From a virus (Duplodnaviria > Caudoviricetes): a stretch of 64,000 nt of DNA. The notes beneath the pieces were generated by a model that had not been told where the DNA came from, ran no database searches, and saw only the letters and a list, made by a program, of their open reading frames with translations. Location: the IMG/VR virus record IMGVR_UViG_3300033463_000051, positions 37,083 to 101,082 of that record. The stretch is one strand, 5' to 3'. Of the stretch, positions 1,337 through 63,868 are shown piece after piece; positions within the stretch are counted from its first letter, which is position 1; each line of letters opens with the position of its first letter. The translations under genes and the position numbers were made by a program.

Positions 1337-3879
1337 TGATAGTTCAATACAACTCCCTCAACAGAATGGAAAAGCCACAGTTAATACTCTGCAATCCCGG
1401 GAGCGTTTACAGTGCTAACAGACTGCTGGACGGCGTTGTTGGCATACTTGCCGACCATGAGGCCGAGGAACTTGTATTCAACTTTAACGCCACGTCAGAA
1501 CTAAACTTCAGGCTCAATAAAGTACAGCGTAGCGACCCGGCAGAAAATGCTTATACTGCAAACTTATTCAGGGCTGCACAGAACAGGCGTCTGATATTTG
1601 TGGCAGAAAGTGGTGCGGGTGCGGATTACGAGGTTGGACAGGCTGCAGAAGATGCAATCGGATATTTTATGATCACCAATGTCGAAGACGGATTCGAGAA
1701 CGGTGTTCAATATAAAGACATTAAAGCGCAGTCAATCGATATCGAATTACAACAAAAAATGATTCCGTATATCGAGGACGGTACATATGAATTCACTACC
1801 CTTCTGGAAACAATCGTTCAGTCTCTTCCCCTGTGGAGCATTGGTAGTATAGACCCTAATGTTGCATCAAAATATAGAACGTTTTCCGATGTTGATACAT
1901 CGCTCAACTGCCTGACATTTCTAATGGATAACATGCAGGACGCTTACGAATGCATCATCGTATTTGATATCGTGTTCCGGACAATAAATGTCTACGACCA
2001 AAACAACTATGTTGTGCAGACAAATGTACACATTACGAAAGAGGACTTTATTAATTCACTAAACATTACCGAAGACGCAGAGGATATTTATACCGCCATT
2101 AGCGTACTTGGTGATGACAATATAGTCATATCGCCAATCAACCCTCTCGGGACAAACACAATATATAATTTTGACTACTATCTGGATTGGATGAGTCCCG
2201 ATTTAAAAACGGCAATGATTACTTGGAAGACTGCGGTAGCAAATGCGGAAGATAATTATAAGGCGTTGAATCTTGCATATTATCAGGCACTTGATGTGGC
2301 GTCTGGGTATATAGCCGATATTAATCAACTTACTACACTGGTTAATATGTACGAAAGATGCAAGAATAATATGGGCATTGATAAGGACTCCGCTAACTCA
2401 GAAGCTGCTATCCGGGCTGTTGATGCAGCCGCAGAAAGTGCCGGAGTTGAGGGGTGGGATATAGATACCACCCAAGAAATTGCCAATATTATAAGCGCTA
2501 TTGACACTAAAATCAGTACATATAACGGGCAAATCGATACTATAGAAGGTGAGTTGGAGGAAGAAAACGCGACTATCGAGTCATATCGGGAAGATATCAA
2601 CGAAATAATATCTGATCTATCCCTCACCGAGTACTTAACGGATGCTCAATATGGCGAATTGTCAAATTACATATTTCAGGGAGATTACAAAGATGAGTAT
2701 GTAATCATCACTGACAGTATGAGTTATCAAGAACAATTCGAGCAGATGCAGACTTTATACGATAGGGCTATGTTGCAACTTGAACGTGTGTCCAAGCCTA
2801 CGCAGGAATTCAATATCGATGTTGAGAACTTCATATTTAGTAAGGACTTTGAGACGTGGAGCGACCAGTTGGAAACAGGATGCCTCATCAATGTGGAATT
2901 AGATGAAGATGATGTCGCGGCACTATTTCTCTCTAACATAACAATTAACTTTGATGACCATAAGTTAACAATGACGTTTGGGAATCGTTTTAATAAATTT
3001 GATTCTAAGTCGTTGTTTGACGATATGCTGGGCAACATCAATCGCTCAGCCAACACAATAGATTATATAAAAGAAATACTCTATCCGGTGAAGAATGGTC
3101 AAATCAACCGTATGCAGGAAACATTATCCAATTCCAGGCGGTTGACGGCGTCTAATGCATTAGCCTCAACAAATCAGGAAGTGGTCATAGACGAGTCCGG
3201 ATATCTTGGCAGGAAGGCAGACGCTATTAATGGCGGATATGACCCCCAGCAAGTAAAGATTACAAACAATTCTATAGTTTTTACGAATAATGATTGGGTG
3301 GATACACAAACCGCGATTGGTGAAATCAATATGCCTGACGGAGCGGTAGCGTATGGCGTTAACGCGGCTGCCATATTCGGAGATATAATAGTGGGAACCC
3401 AACTGCATATAACTGATGGCAACGGAAACGATGTACTGCGAGTTATGGAAGATAGTTTTACGACCCAGATATCCGATCTTGAAAATGGAAGGATATCAGC
3501 TCTCGAAAATAGCGCTAACGGACTATCCGTAACCGTAGGAGAGCTCAGTCGTGACCTAACAGACATCTCAGATAATCTGGATAATTTGTCGGCTACATCA
3601 GTTACGACCGGGATGGGATACTCTTTTACAGACGAAGGGTTGCTTATCAACAGTGTTGGCGAGGGCAAGATCTCCAATAGGCTGGACAATACGGGAATGT
3701 ATGTTACAGACTCTGACGATAACGCAGTTCTTACAGCTAATAACAATGGTGTTGTCGCCGTGAACTTAACAGCCAACAATTATCTTACTATTGGTTTATA
3801 TAGTCGTTTTCAGGATTATTCTACGGCTAGTGACACAATGAGAACGGGGTGCTTCTTTGTTGTTCCCGATACAGATTAA
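1336..3879 (+). CDS. Tail spike/Tal-like baseplate protein with coiled coil
   Basis: 847 aa. N-terminus is like phage minor structural/tail endopeptidase proteins; central coiled coil; follows the Dit-like gene. Confidence 0.6.
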   Translation: MIVQYNSLNRMEKPQLILCNPGSVYSANRLLDGVVGILADHEAEELVFNFNATSELNFRLNKVQRSDPAENAYTANLFRAAQNRRLIFVAESGAGADYEVGQAAEDAIGYFMITNVEDGFENGVQYKDIKAQSIDIELQQKMIPYIEDGTYEFTTLLETIVQSLPLWSIGSIDPNVASKYRTFSDVDTSLNCLTFLMDNMQDAYECIIVFDIVFRTINVYDQNNYVVQTNVHITKEDFINSLNITEDAEDIYTAISVLGDDNIVISPINPLGTNTIYNFDYYLDWMSPDLKTAMITWKTAVANAEDNYKALNLAYYQALDVASGYIADINQLTTLVNMYERCKNNMGIDKDSANSEAAIRAVDAAAESAGVEGWDIDTTQEIANIISAIDTKISTYNGQIDTIEGELEEENATIESYREDINEIISDLSLTEYLTDAQYGELSNYIFQGDYKDEYVIITDSMSYQEQFEQMQTLYDRAMLQLERVSKPTQEFNIDVENFIFSKDFETWSDQLETGCLINVELDEDDVAALFLSNITINFDDHKLTMTFGNRFNKFDSKSLFDDMLGNINRSANTIDYIKEILYPVKNGQINRMQETLSNSRRLTASNALASTNQEVVIDESGYLGRKADAINGGYDPQQVKITNNSIVFTNNDWVDTQTAIGEINMPDGAVAYGVNAAAIFGDIIVGTQLHITDGNGNDVLRVMEDSFTTQISDLENGRISALENSANGLSVTVGELSRDLTDISDNLDNLSATSVTTGMGYSFTDEGLLINSVGEGKISNRLDNTGMYVTDSDDNAVLTANNNGVVAVNLTANNYLTIGLYSRFQDYSTASDTMRTGCFFVVPDTD

Positions 3880-27341: not shown

Positions 27342-29306
27342 CTAGTAGATTTTTTCGTATCCCGTCATCGTATAGTACTTGCCGTTCTGCTCATAGCCTG
27401 TGCAACGGATAATGTCGTTTTTATGAATCGGGGTCTTGTCATAAAGTCTGTTGAATATGGTGAAGCGCGACTCCTTCCCGCTGCCAATGGACTTTGTTAT
27501 GATGCTGTATCCAAACTGCTTCCCGTCCTTTTTGCGCTTCTGCGGGTAAATGTCAAGAATATACAATTTACGCCTGTCCTCCTGCTTGCCGGAGACATAT
27601 CCGACATATCCCATCACGTCCACAAAATTCCTGACTTTTGTGATATCCGGAAGGTCTTCCATATGCACAGCCTTTATCGCATCTTCTGTTTCGTGGAGTA
27701 TTGATGTTACATCTAGCAGTGTGTAACTTTTTGCTACCCCTCCCGCCTTTGTAACACCGATAGCGTACTTTGTGATGATAGGTTCAAGCGGAGTACCGTC
27801 CACCTTATCCTTGCTGATTTTCTTGGCTTCGCCTTTCTTGAAGAAGTCGTAGAACATTTCCGTAATACGCAGCAGTTCTCTTTGATTGCCGAAGTCCGAG
27901 AAAAAGTCCAGTTTTATAAGGATGTCGAGTTGCCGTGTATTTACAGAGGTCTTTTGGTCTATATCAAATAGTACGTCTACAAACCTCTTGTATTCTCTTC
28001 CGTGTGCGAGTTTGTAGAGTTCTTCTGCGACACTTGCGTTCATATATTTAATAGATGTAACGCCTTTCGCTATAATATTGCGTTCCTTGTCGTAGAAATA
28101 CTCACCTCTGGAAAGCCCCCACTTGGGCATCGTGACCTTGATCCCAACGCTATGAGCATATTCGGTGCCATTCCTTATATCGTCTTCATTGGCCGCATTG
28201 TTCAGGAACGATGTGATGAACTCTATCGGATGATAGTACCTAAAGTACGCACAGAGATAACCGAGCAGGCAGTATGCTATTGAATGGTTATAGCCAAACT
28301 GGTAGTTGGCGCTGTCCTCTATGATTTGGAGAAACTCCCTGGCTTCTTTTTCGGCCTCTTCCCTTGGCTGCGGAGACTTTTTACAGTACCCCTCAAGTAT
28401 GGACGGCATGGCAGCATCCAGTCTGTCTTTTTGCTTTCTGCCTATTGCTCGCCGGATGTTATCCGCTTCACTCCCCGAAAGCCCGCATATCTGCTGAAGA
28501 AATTTGATGGTGTCCTCCTGGTAGATAAGATATCCGAGGTTGTCCTTCAGCAGTTCGTCTATTATTTCTGAAGGGTTCGTGTGCGGGATTCTTGCAAGCA
28601 GTTCATCTCTATAGGACGTTCCCGACGGGCGTATACATGCGGTTACGATAGACATGTCAAAGATGTTCTTGGGCTTGAACTTTCTTAAACTGTCATAAGC
28701 AAAATTTCCTTCAAACTGGAATATAGCCGCAGGACTTTTGACCATGTCCGCCCAGACATCCGGATCACTCCAGTTGATTTCGTGTGTTTTCGGATATGGC
28801 TGTCCGAGATAAACGCACGTATCACGGATTACTTGAACCGTTTTAAGAACGAGGAAGTCGTATTTGGCGAGGCCCGTGTAATCGTGGATGTTTTCCATGT
28901 CCAGCATTAGGCAGTTTTCGCCGTCTTTATCAAATGTGCCGAAATTATCCTGTAGTGTGATTGGGCTTATCACCATACCCGCAGGATGTACGGATTGAGA
29001 TATCTTTGTGTCGTACAGTCCGTCAAAGTAATAGAACAATTTCGGGTATTTTGTTTTAGTTTTTTCGGGTTCTTCATCAAACTCGGCTTTGATTCGTGCG
29101 ATATTCGGAAGACTCCACGGATTTTCTCCGCCTCCGGGATGAGTCTCTGACCACTTGATTGCCAAAGCCCTCCCAATATCATCTATCGCGCCTTTGGCTT
29201 GCATGGTTCCAAAAGAGGCGACCCTGGCGGTTTTATCTATACCAAATCTTTCAGTGATGTATTTAAATATTGCGGGGCGGTCTGATTCAATGCAATCTAC
29301 GTCGAT
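27342..29306 (-). CDS. dnaE: DNA polymerase III alpha-like, exon 2
   Basis: Frame resumes IDVDCIESDR at 29306. Contains SVHPAG, KYDFLVL, IFQF, YQE, YQFGYNHSIAY. Confidence 0.9.
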   Translation of the reverse strand: MDVDCIESDRPAIFKYITERFGIDKTARVASFGTMQAKGAIDDIGRALAIKWSETHPGGGENPWSLPNIARIKAEFDEEPEKTKTKYPKLFYYFDGLYDTKISQSVHPAGMVISPITLQDNFGTFDKDGENCLMLDMENIHDYTGLAKYDFLVLKTVQVIRDTCVYLGQPYPKTHEINWSDPDVWADMVKSPAAIFQFEGNFAYDSLRKFKPKNIFDMSIVTACIRPSGTSYRDELLARIPHTNPSEIIDELLKDNLGYLIYQEDTIKFLQQICGLSGSEADNIRRAIGRKQKDRLDAAMPSILEGYCKKSPQPREEAEKEAREFLQIIEDSANYQFGYNHSIAYCLLGYLCAYFRYYHPIEFITSFLNNAANEDDIRNGTEYAHSVGIKVTMPKWGLSRGEYFYDKERNIIAKGVTSIKYMNASVAEELYKLAHGREYKRFVDVLFDIDQKTSVNTRQLDILIKLDFFSDFGNQRELLRITEMFYDFFKKGEAKKISKDKVDGTPLEPIITKYAIGVTKAGGVAKSYTLLDVTSILHETEDAIKAVHMEDLPDITKVRNFVDVMGYVGYVSGKQEDRRKLYILDIYPQKRKKDGKQFGYSIITKSIGSGKESRFTIFNRLYDKTPIHKNDIIRCTGYEQNGKYYTMTGYEKIY

Positions 29307-36152: not shown

Positions 36153-36227
36153 TGGCAGGGGTGGCTGGATTCGAACCAACGTATTGTGGAGTCAAAGTCC
36201 ACCGCCTTACCGCTTGGCTACACCCCC
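36153..36227 (-). tRNA. tRNA-Gln(UUG)
   Basis: Cloverleaf; anticodon loop CUUUGAC; GGUUCGAAUCC; encoded CCA. Confidence 0.92.
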
Positions 36228-46434: not shown

Positions 46435-46733
46435 CACCCAATCTGCAACCGGTTGTGCCGGTGTGCTTTAAAGAGAAAGTTGGATTTCCGTTCCTTCGGG
46501 CCTCCGGGACTTTTTATGTCCCGGAGGTACCGGAGCTCCGGAAATTTAACTTTCTCGCCACTGTTCTTGCTAGACGATCACGCTCAAGTGTGAAATTACT
46601 TCACTTTGAAGCGGGAGCGGAATAAGTGAGTAATTTCCACCTGAGCGTTGATGGTCGTGCAAGAACACAGCTAAAAGTGCGTTTCCCTCGCTGACAGCGG
46701 GGGATGTACCTGAGTACAGATCTGCATTGGGTG
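46435..46733 (-). ncRNA. Retron-like msr-msd ncRNA, copy 4 (divergent)
   Basis: 8-bp terminal IR (46435-46442/46726-46733); G at 46725; hairpin with CGCU-GUC-AGCG apex; two long msd hairpins. Confidence 0.72.
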
Positions 46734-46741
46734 ATTTGGAT

Positions 46742-46854
46742 TTCCCTGTTCCTGTATATAATGAAAGGAGAAAAATTATAAATGAACAATGAAAACAGAC
46801 ATTTTGAAAGGAGAAAAGAAGTAATTATAATGAGGAGGGAACAGGAACAGGGAA
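46742..46854 (-). ncRNA. Candidate stem-loop RNA with anti-SD-rich loop
   Basis: Perfect 14-bp IR enclosing 85 nt that contain UUUUCUCCUUUCA twice on the minus strand. Confidence 0.5.
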
Positions 46855-46855
46855 C

Positions 46856-46901
46856 TGGTCGGAGTGGCGGGAGTTGCACCCGCTGTTAACTACTCACTCC
46901 G
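46856..46901 (-). ncRNA. Mini tRNA-like element (acceptor stem + T-arm + CCA)
   Basis: CGGAGUG-AGUAGUUAACA-GCGGG-UGCAACU-CCCGC-CACUCCG-A-CCA. Confidence 0.65.
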
Positions 46902-46913
46902 ATAATTCCTATA

Positions 46914-47258
46914 TCAAAGGAGGCTGTAAAAACCCCTTGAATATCTTGAGTTAAACCAGTTGTACACGTCGGCTGCCGTGATGGGCTTAACATCATCACC
47001 GTCGTTACCGATACCGTAAAACTGATTATCAAAAACACCGTTGTTTGGATCATAGAGTTCATCTTCGATCAATTTATACAATATCTTAAGTGCCATATCT
47101 CTATCGGCCAGCGTTTTATAATTCGCCTCAACCTCGTAAAAATCCTCATCGCACTCAAGACACTGATAAACGTATCTCGGATTCTGACTTGTGTATAAAA
47201 CCGCACCGCAGTGCGGACATTTTGCCGGCTGTACAGCCACAGGCCTGTCTATTATCAT
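46914..47258 (-). CDS. Zn-ribbon hypothetical protein
   Basis: CPHC...CLEC. Confidence 0.55.
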   Translation of the reverse strand: MIIDRPVAVQPAKCPHCGAVLYTSQNPRYVYQCLECDEDFYEVEANYKTLADRDMALKILYKLIEDELYDPNNGVFDNQFYGIGNDGDDVKPITAADVYNWFNSRYSRGFYSLL

Positions 47259-47837: not shown

Positions 47838-48122
47838 TTAAGCGTGTGATACCCTGTCGTTTAACTCCGCTCTCTTGCCGTCGTTAAATCGATTGGTATT
47901 GCCTACCAAATAACCCGTGATCCGGCGAAGCCGTTCAAATGGAAGTGGGGTGCATTTGTACGTAACATTAACGTATTCCCCGTCCACTTCAAAAATTATG
48001 CTTTCGATCTTTCTGTTGCGTCTTTTTTCAAGCCGCTCGATCATGTCTATGTATGCCTGGATTTCCTCGTCAGACAACGTTCCGTTTCTGACTTCTATCA
48101 GTGCGTTGCTTAAAACCATCAC
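47838..48122 (-). CDS. Stand-alone NrdD C-terminal glycyl-radical-domain protein
   Basis: FERLRRITGYLVG...RFNDGKRAELNDRVSH. Confidence 0.75.
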   Translation of the reverse strand: MMVLSNALIEVRNGTLSDEEIQAYIDMIERLEKRRNRKIESIIFEVDGEYVNVTYKCTPLPFERLRRITGYLVGNTNRFNDGKRAELNDRVSHA

Positions 48123-51921: not shown

Positions 51922-53064
51922 TTAACCTCTCAGCAGTTGTTTCATTGTTTGTGGGATGTTCACACTGAACTTATCCCCTATCTTCGTTACTATGTCGTCT
52001 ATTGCCGTGCCTTCGACCATGTGGTAATAATTACGAAGCCCCTCGAGATGCTGTACCTGTTCGAGAGGCCACGGATTGCCGTTTTTCGTATCCAGAGCAA
52101 ACGATGTGAGCATTGCCTGGAATTCCCTCTTCCTCTTTGAACCAATCGTTATCTTGTTGTCCTTATTCAGCATAACCCCAAGATTCCAATTCCTGCCTGC
52201 CGACGAACCATATCTTGTCTTTTCCGTCTTTATGGTGAATGGAGCGTCAAATCGCTTCAGTGCGTCTATAATAAACTGCTGAATCTTTCTAAAATCAAAC
52301 TCATATCTCGACGACACTATAAAGTCGTCTGCATATCTTGTATAAATATACCGCTGACGCTCGAGATCCCTGAACGCGTTTGCAAGACAATGGTCGATTG
52401 GAATCATCATTACGTTCGTTATAAGCGGAGAAATCGGAGTTCCCTGTGGCAGTCCGCCATTCAGAAAAGCCAGTTCTAATGCCTTGCTGAGTTCCTCTCT
52501 TCCGCTCCTATACCTCACCACTTCGGAGAACGGATATATCATTGAGAACATCTTCATCACAAACTCCGGCGTGGTGCTGCCGAAGAAGTTGGACAGGTCG
52601 AACTTGGCAAACCACTTGCTCTCATTTGCCTGGTGACGCTTGACCGCATCCAGTGTGGATCTTTTTCGAATATACGCAAATGCCGATGTATGATATAAAA
52701 CCTTGAACTTATTCTCAAAAATCGTTTTGAGCACGCGGAGTGCGTTCATTAGATCCTCATTCGGAGCGTCTATTTTTCTTAAACCGCCGCTCTTTTTGGG
52801 GATATAAAATTCCCTGTACAGGGCTTGACGCGGAACCTCCCGAAGCGGTTCTACCGAAGCGTTAAATCTTCGTAATGCCTCGATGAGTTCATATACATCT
52901 ATCCGTGAGCGAACCCTGTCACTCGGAGCATCTACCGTATACGTCCTTGTGTTTGTCATATTTGGATTATACGGCTCAAGACTAGCCGTCTCTGTTCCAA
53001 ACAGGAACTCTTCCAGGGACATCTGGTGATACATCGGCGGCTGTAAAACCGTTATATAAACCAT
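51922..53064 (-). CDS. Retron-type reverse transcriptase
   Basis: IPKKSGGLRKIDAP, AFAY, DAVKRH (region X-like), FDLSNFF, LPQGTPISP, YTRYADD, NLG (region Y-like). Start at 53064 behind SD aaggag; 380 aa; no fused domain. Confidence 0.88.
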   Translation of the reverse strand: MVYITVLQPPMYHQMSLEEFLFGTETASLEPYNPNMTNTRTYTVDAPSDRVRSRIDVYELIEALRRFNASVEPLREVPRQALYREFYIPKKSGGLRKIDAPNEDLMNALRVLKTIFENKFKVLYHTSAFAYIRKRSTLDAVKRHQANESKWFAKFDLSNFFGSTTPEFVMKMFSMIYPFSEVVRYRSGREELSKALELAFLNGGLPQGTPISPLITNVMMIPIDHCLANAFRDLERQRYIYTRYADDFIVSSRYEFDFRKIQQFIIDALKRFDAPFTIKTEKTRYGSSAGRNWNLGVMLNKDNKITIGSKRKREFQAMLTSFALDTKNGNPWPLEQVQHLEGLRNYYHMVEGTAIDDIVTKIGDKFSVNIPQTMKQLLRG

Positions 53065-53090
53065 GCCAAAAACCTCTCCTTTCAATAGTA

Positions 53091-53378
53091 TTTGTTTGCA
53101 ATGCATCTTAGAGTAATTACGATCCTTTTCCGGGTAAGATAAGAAGCCACCTCCTTATCGGAAGAAAAGTCAAGTATAAATTTGGCTTATTTGGGTTAGT
53201 TTTCGAGAAATCTTCCACCTTATTGCTGGACATCGCTACCCGACTGGGCAATTCTTCGAGTTCTTCAGGCGGAGCTGCGCGTTTCCTCCTTCTGGTCGTC
53301 TCTTCTTTCCTCTACCGTTTTGTTACTTCCGCTAACAGCGAAAGCCGTCCGAAGACAAATAGCCACTGCAAACTCAAA
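53091..53378 (-). ncRNA. Retron-like msr-msd ncRNA, copy 1 (canonical position upstream of RT)
   Basis: Terminal pairing GUUUGCAGUG/CAUUGCAAAC; G at 53363/53364; GUC-UUCG-GAC hairpin; conserved block at 53305-53345. Confidence 0.82.
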
Positions 53379-55062: not shown

Positions 55063-55989
55063 TTATCTCCAACTATTGTAGTACCCCGAAGAGTACCCGA
55101 AAGGCCCGTACGGATCGTCGTCATCCTCAAAATCGTCCGTGTAGTACGGTGAATGCCACGCATTCTTTGGCTTTTCGCTCTTATTCTTGTCCTTACGCTT
55201 ACCCTTACGCTTGGTTTCCTTCTCCTCTTTCTTCGGCGTTATGACCGGAAGCACCGAAGAACCCGCCGGAGCAGCGGCCGGCTTTGTGGATACCGTCGTT
55301 GTCGCAGCGGGTACTATGTTGGTTGTCTGTTTCGCATATGTATATGTCTTCGTACGAATCATTTCCTTGGCTGAATCGATAAATTCCTGCATACCCAGCC
55401 CGCCATCGATTATCTCTACCGTGCAATCTGCCGTTTCGAACAGCAGATTCTTCTGCAAGTCATAGATCTTTATCGTTTTCTCTCCACGCTTGTTCCAAAT
55501 CATGAAGATGTAGAACGTATCTCCGCTCATCTGGTCAAGAATCTTGCTATACATCGTGTTGTCCGTGCCGGAAGGTGTCGTTCCCATGTTCACATGCGAG
55601 TGCCCCTGCATTCTCAGATTGTGGAAAACCTCATCGGGCTGCTGAACCAGCCACATTGAGTACTCTTCCTCTATCGCATCGACTGTAGTGCCCGTGATTT
55701 CCTGCGGATATACCAAAATGTCCGAAATTATGTACTCATTTGCCTCTGGATCGTCGCCGCGTTTTGCAATTCCGTGCCAAGCGACCTCTTTGTCGAACTC
55801 CTGAATCAGAGTTTGCATCTTCAGCCATGCGATTTCCTCAAAAAGCACGGTTGCCTTGCATTTTTCATCGGAAAATGACTTCGTATACGTCACTTTTCCA
55901 TCGGACATCTTCGTTTCCGTAAGAGTTTTACGGAAATCCTCACACAAAGCGTCTATATATTCCTGTGTGAGCTTGATTGCCTTTGCCAT
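55063..55989 (-). CDS. JAB/MPN-domain metalloprotease
   Basis: EVAWHG...GHSHVNMGTTPSGTD, matching E...HxH-x7-S-x2-D. Confidence 0.85.
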   Translation of the reverse strand: MAKAIKLTQEYIDALCEDFRKTLTETKMSDGKVTYTKSFSDEKCKATVLFEEIAWLKMQTLIQEFDKEVAWHGIAKRGDDPEANEYIISDILVYPQEITGTTVDAIEEEYSMWLVQQPDEVFHNLRMQGHSHVNMGTTPSGTDNTMYSKILDQMSGDTFYIFMIWNKRGEKTIKIYDLQKNLLFETADCTVEIIDGGLGMQEFIDSAKEMIRTKTYTYAKQTTNIVPAATTTVSTKPAAAPAGSSVLPVITPKKEEKETKRKGKRKDKNKSEKPKNAWHSPYYTDDFEDDDDPYGPFGYSSGYYNSWR

Positions 55990-57492: not shown

Positions 57493-57577
57493 TGGTGGGG
57501 GATGCCGGATTCGAACCGGCACGGGAAACCCCACGGGATTTTAAGTCACGTTTGTCTACCAATTCCATCAATCCCCC
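57493..57577 (-). tRNA. tRNA-Leu(UAA)
   Basis: Cloverleaf with long variable arm; anticodon loop CUUAAAA; encoded CCA; one anticodon-stem mismatch. Confidence 0.88.
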
Positions 57578-63374: not shown

Positions 63375-63868
63375 TTGTAAAATCTCCTTTTCAAAATTTT
63401 GAGCAAAAGCCCATAAGCAAACACACCAGACAAGGATAAGAATTTTCGCAATATCCGGCTCCTAAGAGCACAAACACCTCGGTGGGAATCTTGCGAATCA
63501 TACAAATCCCTGTTCTGATGTGCTTGATATAGGCTTGTTCGTAAAACGAACTCAAAATCTCAAAAAGGCGATAATCGCCCGATACCCAGAATTTACGAAT
63601 CTGGGCGATACGACCTAATTTCACATCTAACTCGGTTTAACTCTAGGGGTTTTCACTATCCGAACCATAAGCCTAACTCTTATGCTCCTAGCGACGCCTT
63701 GACTGTTTACAAGGTTAACCATTTTCGGCAAATGATAGCCCCGCCGACATAACCTCGACGGTGGGATATGAATACGGATAAACCGCAATCATCAGAACAA
63801 ACCTCTAACCTACCAACAAATGCAAAAAACTGCATAATTGACTCAAACCGCCCAGTCTTCGGTTCACT

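What the first reader, a model, noticed from the sequence alone, without database searches (positions are those of the whole stretch)
46856..46901. 46-nt mini-tRNA (acceptor stem + T-arm + CCA, no D or anticodon arm) heading the ncRNA cluster
Seen on the minus strand: a perfect 7-bp acceptor stem CGGAGUG/CACUCCG, an 11-nt linker, a 5-bp T-stem with 7-nt loop UGCAACU, discriminator A and CCA. It lies directly 5' of the anti-SD stem-loop and ncRNA copies 4 and 3. Established: RNase P and tRNA 3'-processing enzymes recognise the acceptor/T coaxial helix. Inference: a processing signal that releases the downstream RNAs from a polycistronic transcript, or a tRNA decoy. Standard tRNA scanners would probably miss it.
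Basis: partly seen in the sequence, partly recalled or inferred. Interest (0 to 1): 0.7.

Follow-up and report, generated by a model that had tools for sequence, protein, structure and literature searches.

The report
Truncated tRNA-Pro top half in phage
The 46-base "mini-tRNA" is real and is the upper half (acceptor stem, T arm, ACCA) of a proline tRNA gene, sitting where related rumen phages carry a whole tRNA-Pro. It is most likely a cut-down leftover that host tRNA-trimming enzymes could still recognise, not a proven processing device.

Summary
On the minus strand, 46901-46856 reads CGGAGUG / 11 nt / GCGGG-UGCAACU-CCCGC / CACUCCG-A-CCA, and this is the minimum-energy fold. ARAGORN and Rfam miss it. 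It is not chance: one hit of any perfect 7+5 bp+NCCA shape in 60 shuffles of the 101-kb genome. Its top half differs at 3 of 35 positions from an Oscillibacter tRNA-Pro.

The genome is an uncultured bovine-gut phage. Its relatives have the gene order tRNA-Leu(UAA), retron-type RT, tRNA-Pro(UGG), ncRNA, tRNA-Gln, and here the minihelix fills the tRNA-Pro slot. In relative G001 a whole tRNA-Pro precedes a matching ncRNA at nearly the same distance.

No second copy or variant minihelix was found in the viral collection, or among the rows returned by the capped metagenome and genome scans. Three studies hold identical sequence, so the stems have no conservation or covariation evidence of their own. 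No RNA data were available.

It keeps what bacterial RNase P needs: a 12-bp coaxial stack, a T loop, U at -1 and ACCA. Cleavage at 46902|46901 is therefore plausible. Its encoded CCA argues against an RNase Z cut that would free the downstream RNAs.

My odds: unselected remnant 0.5, retained t-element-like signal about 0.33, decoy or RT tag about 0.08, attP core about 0.05.

Unchecked notes from this scan describe similar tRNA top halves in other phages, one of them likewise read as a leftover.

The parts
46902..46907 (-). 5' leader AAUUAU, with U at -1 next to the predicted RNase P site (46902|46901)
   Evidence: The same ..WUAU|C leader precedes tRNA-Pro in relatives.
46895..46901 (-). Acceptor stem 5' strand CGGAGUG (C1 as in bacterial tRNA-Pro)
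46884..46894 (-). 11-nt linker AGUAGUUAACA replacing the D arm, anticodon arm and variable loop
   Evidence: No better match to a tRNA-Pro interior than shuffled linkers.
46867..46883 (-). T arm: GCGGG / UGCAACU / CCCGC. The loop is canonical except G at position 55.
   Evidence: One of only three T-arm-like hairpins in the 101-kb genome.
46860..46866 (-). Acceptor stem 3' strand CACUCCG
   Evidence: Identical to the 3' acceptor strand of the bacterial tRNA-Pro genes found.
46856..46859 (-). Discriminator A73 and encoded CCA
   Evidence: The phage's tRNA-Gln and tRNA-Leu also encode CCA.
46914..47258 (-). Upstream 114-aa ORF (weak zinc-ribbon matches, below Pfam cut-offs). Its stop codon lies 12 nt before the minihelix.
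   Evidence: The only database match is itself, in the length range searched.
46742..46854 (-). Perfect 14-bp inverted repeat enclosing an 85-nt CU-rich loop, starting 2 nt after the CCA (one G, 46855, between)
   Evidence: Unique in the genome.
46435..46733 (-). ncRNA unit 4 (CGCUGUCAGCG hairpin head). A matching unit follows tRNA-Pro in G001.

Best explanation
The element is the top half of a bacterial-type tRNA-Pro gene: a 7-bp acceptor stem with C1-G72 and A73, a 5-bp T stem, a 7-nt T loop and an encoded CCA. About 31 nt (D arm, anticodon arm, variable loop) have been replaced by an 11-nt linker. It occupies the tRNA-Pro slot of the tRNA/ncRNA cassette region downstream of the phage's retron-type RT. 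It cannot decode. I read it as a truncated tRNA gene left over from tRNA loss in this phage lineage. Shown: its tRNA-Pro origin, its position in the slot, and its lack of any detectable homologous minihelix. Inferred: if the region is transcribed, RNase P will still cut between U46902 and C46901. Acceptor/T-stem/T-loop hairpins are efficient RNase P substrates, and the U at -1 and the RCCA end are present. 3' exonucleases would then trim towards the CCA. The result would be a small stable 46-nt RNA and a break in the message 12 nt after the upstream stop codon. On this reading that cleavage is an inherited side effect, not a selected device. Confidence in the origin is about 0.9. Confidence that it is unselected is about 0.5.
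For: Identity as tRNA-Pro:
- The 3' 26 nt, with two T-loop positions left free, match more than 240 full-length tRNA-Pro genes in metagenomes and in bacterial genomes, many of them rumen or gut Oscillospiraceae and other Clostridia.
- 32 of 35 top-half positions equal an Oscillibacter tRNA-Pro.

Position in the slot:
- G001 and G002 have the order Leu(UAA), RT, Pro(UGG), ncRNA, Thr, Gln. G000 has Leu(UAA), RT, minihelix, ncRNA4, ncRNA3, Gln.
- In G001 the ncRNA head lies 166 nt after tRNA-Pro, against 156 nt after the minihelix here. The AUGCAGAU and CCGCUGUCAGCGAG blocks are shared.
- The leader ..WUAU|C is shared with the relatives' tRNA-Pro genes.

Remnant pattern:
- This phage keeps 2 tRNAs, against 6-7 in G001 and G002.
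- Other truncated, imperfect tRNA-like pieces occur in relatives: L007:4248-4292, L009:14294-14353, G001:6650-6716, G003:57685-57740 and L016:1268-1329. A few occur in unrelated tRNA-rich phage loci. None was found in 1.5 Mb of mostly bacterial or metagenome DNA.
- No other copy or variant of the minihelix was found.
- The T loop has G where tRNAs nearly always have U55.

RNase P competence: hairpins made of acceptor stem, T stem and T loop are cleaved efficiently by E. coli RNase P RNA (PMC11143913, read).
Against: - All 12 stem pairs are Watson-Crick and ACCA is intact. The two stem differences from the Oscillibacter tRNA-Pro both turn G-U pairs into Watson-Crick pairs.
- The linker resembles no tRNA-Pro interior better than shuffled linkers do (177 of 300 shuffles reach the observed score). 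Either the deletion is old and the helices were kept by selection, or the event brought in filler sequence.
- It sits exactly at a gene boundary and heads a non-coding RNA cluster.
- G55 is not proof of decay, because some full-length phage tRNAs have UGCAAAU T loops.
- The top half is nearer to bacterial tRNA-Pro (3/35 differences) than to the relatives' phage tRNA-Pro genes (9-12/35). Simple in-place decay of the ancestral phage gene is therefore not the whole story.
Confidence: 0.5

Rival explanations
1. It is a retained t-element-like punctuation signal. After the decoding part of tRNA-Pro was lost, the top half was kept because RNase P cleavage at 46902|46901, followed by 3' trimming to CCA, separates the upstream mRNA from the structured ncRNA cluster. 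This would set the stability of one or both.
For: - The helices are perfect, ACCA and the U at -1 are intact, and the T loop is canonical except at position 55.
- It lies 12 nt after a stop codon and 2 nt (one G, 46855, between) before a very structured 450-nt RNA stretch (z = -12).
- The arrangement of tRNA-Pro, CU-rich spacer and ncRNA is shared with G001.
- The linker has diverged while the stems have not.
- Both stem differences from the bacterial tRNA-Pro strengthen pairing.
- Minimal acceptor/T-arm hairpins are good RNase P substrates (PMC11143913).
- tRNA-like t-elements define mRNA ends in plant mitochondria (PMC1920247, title and abstract as listed).
- Unchecked notes from this scan report top-half mimics at gene boundaries in other phages. 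These are leads only.
Against: - It is a singleton with no homologous minihelix in any relative or collection searched.
- Most ncRNA copies in relatives, and copies 1 and 2 here, have no tRNA beside them.
- In G001 a terminator-like hairpin lies between tRNA-Pro and the ncRNA.
- Encoded CCA inhibits B. subtilis RNase Z (PMC7479834), so a clean 3' cut that frees the downstream RNA is not expected.
- There is no covariation evidence of its own, because three studies hold identical sequence.
Confidence: 0.33
2. It is a trans-acting minihelix. One version is a stable 46-nt host-type tRNA-Pro acceptor/T-arm mimic that occupies a host protein binding tRNA acceptor ends, such as a toxin or defence enzyme, the CCA-adding enzyme or RNase P. 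Another version is a 3' 'genomic tag' read by the nearby RT.
For: - The acceptor identity is host-like: C1-G72, A73, 32 of 35 positions.
- A retron-type RT and its ncRNAs lie in the same gene block.
- Toxins acting on tRNA acceptor ends exist (MenT, PMC10435456, seen in the listing).
Against: - Nothing in the locus points to a partner.
- From general knowledge, not tested here: bacterial ProRS depends on the anticodon, so charging is unlikely. There is no G3:U70 (Ala) and no G-1 (His).
- The RT scores as a retron type. From general knowledge, retron RTs prime from a 2'-OH within their own ncRNA, not from a CCA end.
- It is a singleton.
Confidence: 0.08
3. It is an attP core or a host-derived recombination scar. 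The phage would carry the 3' end of the host tRNA-Pro gene as its integration site.
For: - 26 of 28 nt are identical to the T arm, acceptor 3' strand and ACCA of Oscillospiraceae tRNA-Pro genes.
- The genome encodes two tyrosine recombinases.
- One relative is classed as a provirus.
Against: - An attP core does not need, and does not explain, the perfectly complementary 5' acceptor strand 11 nt upstream.
- Both recombinase genes are more than 28 kb away.
- The T-loop G is not found in any of about 240 bacterial tRNA-Pro hits.
- The site lies inside a co-oriented gene block, in the slot where relatives have a whole phage tRNA-Pro.
Confidence: 0.05
4. It is a chance hairpin or a transcription terminator of the 114-aa gene.
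For: It directly follows a stop codon.
Against: - About 0.02 such structures are expected per genome, even without requiring a T loop.
- It matches tRNA-Pro 3' halves.
- No U run follows the hairpin, and the terminator scan does not flag it.
Confidence: 0.01

Closest known systems
Truncated or decayed tRNA genes in phage tRNA arrays
   Same: It is homologous to tRNA-Pro and sits in the slot where relatives carry an intact tRNA-Pro(UGG). It has lost the parts needed for decoding and is not conserved as such. Other truncated tRNA-like pieces occur in the same phage group.
   Different: What remains is flawless (12/12 Watson-Crick pairs, ACCA), whereas the other pieces mostly have mismatches or lack CCA. 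It resembles bacterial tRNA-Pro more than the relatives' phage copies.
t-elements of plant mitochondria (tRNA-like elements at mRNA ends; PMC1920247)
   Same: It has an acceptor-like stem plus T arm without an anticodon arm, placed at a gene boundary. It would work in the same way, through RNase P recognition of the acceptor/T stack.
   Different: t-elements have mapped transcript ends. Here there are no RNA ends and no conservation. This one also carries an encoded CCA and lies in a phage.
Synthetic RNase P model substrates (acceptor stem + T stem-loop hairpins, McClain/Altman; reviewed in PMC11143913)
   Same: The architecture is the same: a 12-bp coaxial stack, a T loop and 3' RCCA.
   Different: This is a natural genomic sequence with an 11-nt bulged linker where the D and anticodon arms would emerge. 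Cleavage has not been tested.
tRNA-like modules that head or tail non-coding RNAs (mascRNA of MALAT1, PMC8457004; from general knowledge, the tRNA-like RNAs that precede the microRNA hairpins of murine gammaherpesvirus 68)
   Same: A tRNA-like fold is joined to structured non-coding RNA on one transcript, where tRNA enzymes make the cut.
   Different: Those are eukaryotic or eukaryote-virus systems cut by RNase P and RNase Z at CCA-less ends. Here CCA is encoded and the host is bacterial, where CCA inhibits RNase Z (PMC7479834).
attP cores that copy the 3' end of a host tRNA gene
   Same: The 3' 28 nt are nearly identical to host-type tRNA-Pro.
   Different: It also has the matching 5' acceptor strand, lies far from both recombinase genes, and carries a T-loop base not seen in the bacterial genes.

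Membership tests
Canonical tRNA (tRNA-Pro) | Cloverleaf with D arm and an anticodon arm carrying an NGG-reading anticodon | tested here: not met
   Only 11 nt lie between the acceptor and the T stem. ARAGORN and the Rfam tRNA model give no call.
Canonical tRNA (tRNA-Pro) | 7-bp acceptor stem with C1-G72, discriminator A73, 3' CCA | tested here: met
   Identical or near-identical to more than 240 bacterial tRNA-Pro genes.
Canonical tRNA (tRNA-Pro) | T arm: 5-bp stem, 7-nt loop U54-U55-C56-R57-A58 | tested here: inconclusive
   The stem is perfect. The loop UGCAACU has G at position 55. UGCAAAU loops do occur in full-length phage tRNAs.
Truncated tRNA gene / remnant in a phage tRNA array | An intact homologous tRNA at the same slot in relatives | tested here: met
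   tRNA-Pro(UGG) lies between the RT and tRNA-Gln in G001 and G002, and next to a matching ncRNA in G001.
Truncated tRNA gene / remnant in a phage tRNA array | The truncated form is not conserved | tested here: met
   No other copy in IMG/VR, or among the rows returned by the capped metagenome and genome scans. Copies from three studies are identical.
Truncated tRNA gene / remnant in a phage tRNA array | Decay (mismatches) in what remains | tested here: not met
   12/12 Watson-Crick pairs and an intact ACCA. G55 is the only departure.
t-element-like RNase P/Z processing signal | Acceptor-like stem stacked on a T arm, placed at a transcript or gene boundary | tested here: met
   It lies 12 nt after the stop codon of the 114-aa ORF.
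t-element-like RNase P/Z processing signal | RNA ends mapped at the predicted cleavage sites | not testable with these tools
   No RNA run was listed for this DNA. Contigs cannot show RNA ends.
t-element-like RNase P/Z processing signal | Conservation of the fold, with covariation, in relatives | tested here: not met
   Relatives have a whole tRNA-Pro or nothing at the slot, and no homologous minihelix was found.
attP core at a tRNA 3' end | Identity to the 3' end of a host tRNA gene | tested here: met
   26/28 nt match Oscillospiraceae tRNA-Pro.
attP core at a tRNA 3' end | Adjacent integrase, and a prophage junction at that tRNA | tested here: not met
   The recombinase genes are at G000 55369-55968 and 2679-3179, and the minihelix is at 83938-83983. 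In 401 Oscillospiraceae genomes the only match at this site was the tRNA-Pro 3' half; the other hits fell in the NrdD-like ORF. The junction part is inconclusive, because those genomes are a sample.
Minihelix-shaped inserts inside phage tRNA anticodon loops (unchecked scan notes) | Flanked by the two halves of a tRNA | tested here: not met
   Only three T-arm-like hairpins exist in the genome. ARAGORN with introns gives nothing at the default threshold. At a lowered threshold it gives a spurious tRNA-Gln with an 87-nt intron, whose 5' strand pairs at only 5 of 7 positions.

The most novel reading that the evidence does not exclude
A phage has kept only the RNase P-recognisable top half of a host-type tRNA-Pro as a bacterial-virus counterpart of mitochondrial t-elements. 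It would punctuate a transcript between a protein gene and a cluster of retron-type ncRNAs, so that host tRNA enzymes set the ends or stability of those RNAs. A less likely extension is that the CCA-ended minihelix is read by the neighbouring RT as a 3' tag.
Probability: 0.3. Interest if true: 0.55.

Novelty: new member of a known kind. Interest (0 to 1): 0.3.

Why it matters
If it is only a leftover, its value is practical. It shows that standard scanners overlook tRNA-derived stubs, that tRNA cassettes next to this phage group's RT turn over quickly, and that the stub points to a Clostridia (Oscillospiraceae-type) host. If the top half is kept on purpose, it would be a simple, testable case of a phage using host RNase P to cut its own transcripts next to retron-type RNAs. 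That layout is established for plant mitochondria and some animal viruses but not for phages.

Tried and rejected
- **RNA evidence:** no RNA holder was listed for this DNA. Contigs from four runs (three studies) were identical and show no ends or variants.
- **Neighbour-based synteny:** the 114-aa ORF has no relative in IMG/VR and matched only itself in the protein database, in the length range searched. DNA and protein comparison of 44-49 kb with 18 RT-anchored loci showed no synteny at the site.
- **Exact and junction searches:** there was no other copy of the 3' 26 nt in IMG/VR. The pattern for the TTAAC junction plus T arm plus CCA returned only full-length tRNAs and pieces lacking a paired 5' acceptor strand (possibly att sites).
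- **Search for more members of the tRNA-Pro/ncRNA module:** only G001 was found, and the other 34 hits lack the head hairpin.
- **Prophage search in 401 Oscillospiraceae genomes:** only tRNA-Pro 3' halves and an NrdD-like segment matched.
- **Linker as a simple deletion leftover:** there was no signal.
- **Homology with the L007:4248 minihelix:** I considered it because the linkers look alike (AG..CUUAAC, 7 of 10). It is post hoc, the two sites are not syntenic, and the motif is common, so I did not rely on it.
- **Coding readings of the spacer:** the 92-aa and 115-aa minus-strand ORFs and the 35-aa plus-strand ORF have no Pfam match.
- **Minus-strand promoter-like site:** the site at 46930-46902 (9/12) would start transcription inside the acceptor stem, and such matches are expected by chance.
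- **Rfam at E<=10:** only chance microRNA-like hits on the long hairpin.
- **ARAGORN at a lowered threshold:** the intron-containing tRNA-Gln is spurious.

Full report
**Observation.** The parts are CGGAGUG, an 11-nt linker AGUAGUUAACA, GCGGG, the loop UGCAACU, CCCGC, CACUCCG, A and CCA. Folded alone, it gives this shape as the minimum-energy and centroid structure: -18.6 kcal/mol, 53% of the ensemble, z = -3.0. The same shape appears in the fold of the whole 491-nt non-coding stretch. ARAGORN finds only tRNA-Gln (36153-36227) and tRNA-Leu (57493-57577) in the window. Rfam finds nothing here at gathering threshold or at E<=10. The structure is not chance. A scan for any perfect 7-bp stem, 2-32-nt linker, 5-bp stem, 7-nt loop and NCCA gave one real hit in the 101-kb genome and one hit in 60 shuffles. 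A T-arm/CCA pattern gave 0 matches in 100 shuffles.

**Source.** The window is part of a 101-kb IMG/VR virus record, estimated 85% complete. Its DNA occurs in bovine-gut metagenomes from three studies. Contigs from those runs match this region without a single listed difference, so they add no variation. No RNA run was listed.

**What it is.** The 3' 26 nt, with two T-loop positions left free, match more than 120 metagenome and more than 120 bacterial-genome loci. Many hits are Oscillospiraceae and other Clostridia from rumen and gut. Those whose 5' end could be placed are tRNA-Pro genes of about 77 nt, with T loops UUCAAGU, UUCAAAU or UUCAACU. None has UGCAACU, and none showed a 5' acceptor strand at the minihelix spacing. 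The minihelix has C1-G72 and A73, features of bacterial tRNA-Pro by established knowledge. It differs from an Oscillibacter tRNA-Pro at 3 of 35 top-half positions: two G-U pairs have become Watson-Crick pairs, and U55 has become G. It is therefore a tRNA-Pro that lacks the D arm, anticodon arm and variable loop.

**Position.** Eighteen related phage loci were found through the retron-type RT at 51922-53106. The immediate neighbours of the minihelix are not conserved: the 114-aa upstream ORF matches only itself. The order of RNA genes is conserved, however.
- G001 has tRNA-Leu(UAA), RT, tRNA-Leu(CAG), tRNA-Pro(UGG), tRNA-Thr, tRNA-Thr, tRNA-Gln.
- G002 has Leu(UAA), RT, Ser, Pro(UGG), Thr, Gln.
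- This phage has Leu(UAA), RT, minihelix, Gln.

In G001 the tRNA-Pro (27758-27833) is followed by a CU-rich spacer. After 166 nt comes an ncRNA head, CCGCUGUCAGCGAG, preceded by AUGCAGAU. Here the same blocks follow the minihelix after 156 nt. The leader just 5' of position 1 (..WUAU|C) is shared by the minihelix and the relatives' tRNA-Pro genes. The minihelix therefore occupies the tRNA-Pro slot of a shared tRNA-Pro/ncRNA module.

**Remnant or device.** Several points favour a remnant.
- I found no second copy or variant minihelix.
- Relatives hold a whole tRNA-Pro at the slot.
- This phage keeps 2 tRNAs, against 6-7 in G001 and G002.
- The same phage group contains other truncated tRNA-like pieces, mostly imperfect or without CCA: L007:4248-4292, L009:14294-14353, G001:6650-6716 (beside another decayed T arm), G003:57685-57740 and L016:1268-1329.
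- A few such pieces also occur in unrelated tRNA-rich phage loci. None occurred in 1.5 Mb of mostly bacterial or metagenome DNA.
- Most ncRNA copies in relatives, and copies 1 and 2 here, have no tRNA beside them.
- In G001 a terminator-like hairpin lies between tRNA-Pro and the ncRNA.

Other points favour a maintained element.
- All 12 pairs are Watson-Crick and ACCA is intact.
- The residue at -1 is U.
- The two stem differences from the bacterial gene both strengthen pairing.
- The 11-nt linker is no more like a tRNA-Pro interior than shuffled linkers are. That fits either an old deletion with selection on the stems or a deletion that brought in filler sequence.
- G55 is not decisive, because UGCAAAU loops occur in full-length phage tRNAs.

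The stems have no covariation evidence of their own. Compared with the relatives' tRNA-Pro genes, 2-4 pairs differ on both sides and none is broken. Those changes may all predate the deletion.

**Mechanism.** Hairpins made of acceptor stem, T stem and T loop are cleaved efficiently at the canonical site by E. coli RNase P RNA, with or without its protein (PMC11143913). If the element is transcribed as part of the minus-strand message, a cut between U46902 and C46901 is the expected outcome. That is an inference. On the 3' side CCA is encoded. CCA strongly inhibits B. subtilis RNase Z, although bacterial RNase Z can cut after CCA under some conditions (PMC7479834). The 3' end would therefore more likely be made by exonucleolytic trimming, so an RNase Z cut that releases the downstream ncRNAs is not well supported. 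From general knowledge, charging is unlikely: bacterial ProRS needs the anticodon, and there is no G3:U70 and no G-1.

**Other readings.**
- attP core: the 3' half matches host-type tRNA-Pro, and the genome has two tyrosine recombinases. However, both lie more than 28 kb away. An attP core does not explain the complementary 5' strand. The T-loop G is absent from the bacterial genes found. In 401 Oscillospiraceae genomes the only match at this site was the tRNA-Pro 3' half; the remaining hits fell in the NrdD-like ORF.
- Insert within a split tRNA: only three T-arm-like hairpins exist in the genome. ARAGORN with introns gives only a spurious low-threshold call.
- Terminator: no U run follows the hairpin, and the scan does not flag it.

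**Verdict.** I rate an unselected remnant at 0.5, a retained t-element-like signal at about 0.33, a decoy or RT tag at about 0.08, an attP core at about 0.05 and chance at about 0.01. Notes from this scan report similar top-half elements in other phages, one of them judged a leftover of a tRNA that relatives keep whole. I used these notes as leads, not as support.

Noticed in passing
window 46782-46889 (+) and 46804-46831 (+): The purine-rich complement of the 'anti-SD' loop carries two in-frame GAAAGGAG Shine-Dalgarno-like boxes. They lie before ATGs of a 35-aa plus-strand ORF that ends inside the minihelix linker. The same stretch holds an 11/12 sigma-70-like promoter (TTGAAA, 16 nt, TATAAT). 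The CU-rich 'anti-SD' repeats could therefore be plus-strand expression signals read backwards. The ORF has no Pfam match.
   Followed up: partly
window 46742-46854; L343:7834-7930 (G001 27834-27930): A CU-rich stretch (CUCCUUUCUC-like) followed by a strong hairpin lies just after tRNA-Pro in G001 and just after the minihelix here. The sequences are otherwise unalignable. In G001 the hairpin is followed by a U-rich tail, like a terminator.
   Followed up: partly
L016:1268-1329: A 62-nt tRNA-like gene with a perfect 7-bp acceptor stem (U1-A72, discriminator G, CCA), a D arm and a T arm, but only 10 nt where the anticodon arm and variable loop should be. It sits between tRNA-Thr and tRNA-Pro, and ARAGORN does not call it.
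   Followed up: no
L342:6560-6716 (G001): Two tRNA-like pieces lie in tandem. One is a T arm plus 3' acceptor strand without a clear 5' half. The other is a 67-nt element with a perfect acceptor stem, D arm and T arm but no anticodon arm and no CCA.
   Followed up: no
L007:4248-4292: A 45-nt minihelix (6-bp acceptor stem, 10-nt linker AGGGCUUAAC, canonical T arm, no CCA) lies between a terminator-like hairpin and the ribosome-binding site of the next gene. Its leader (AUAU|C) and linker resemble those of the window's minihelix.
   Followed up: partly
window 63641-63714 (-): Rfam RAGATH-16 RNA match above the gathering score (68.5 bits).
   Followed up: no
window 47838-48122 (-): A 94-aa ORF matches only the last ~37 positions of the anaerobic ribonucleotide reductase NrdD family (PF13597, E = 2e-7). 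By position this is probably the glycyl-radical end, as a stand-alone small protein. DNA of this part also matches Oscillospiraceae genomes at about 75% identity.
   Followed up: no
L002-L019 around the RT (e.g. L002:9755, 11234, 11539, 15437, 20929; L019:9746, 11600, 13276, 17953): The CGCUGUYAGCG-headed ncRNA occurs in several copies per genome in most RT-bearing relatives, on the RT strand, both flanking the RT and kilobases downstream. In G001 and G002 one copy sits between tRNA-Pro and tRNA-Thr.
   Followed up: partly
L088, L090, L095 (positions): Full-length phage tRNAs with the T loop UGCAAAU (G at position 55), so G55 is tolerated in some phage tRNAs.
   Followed up: no
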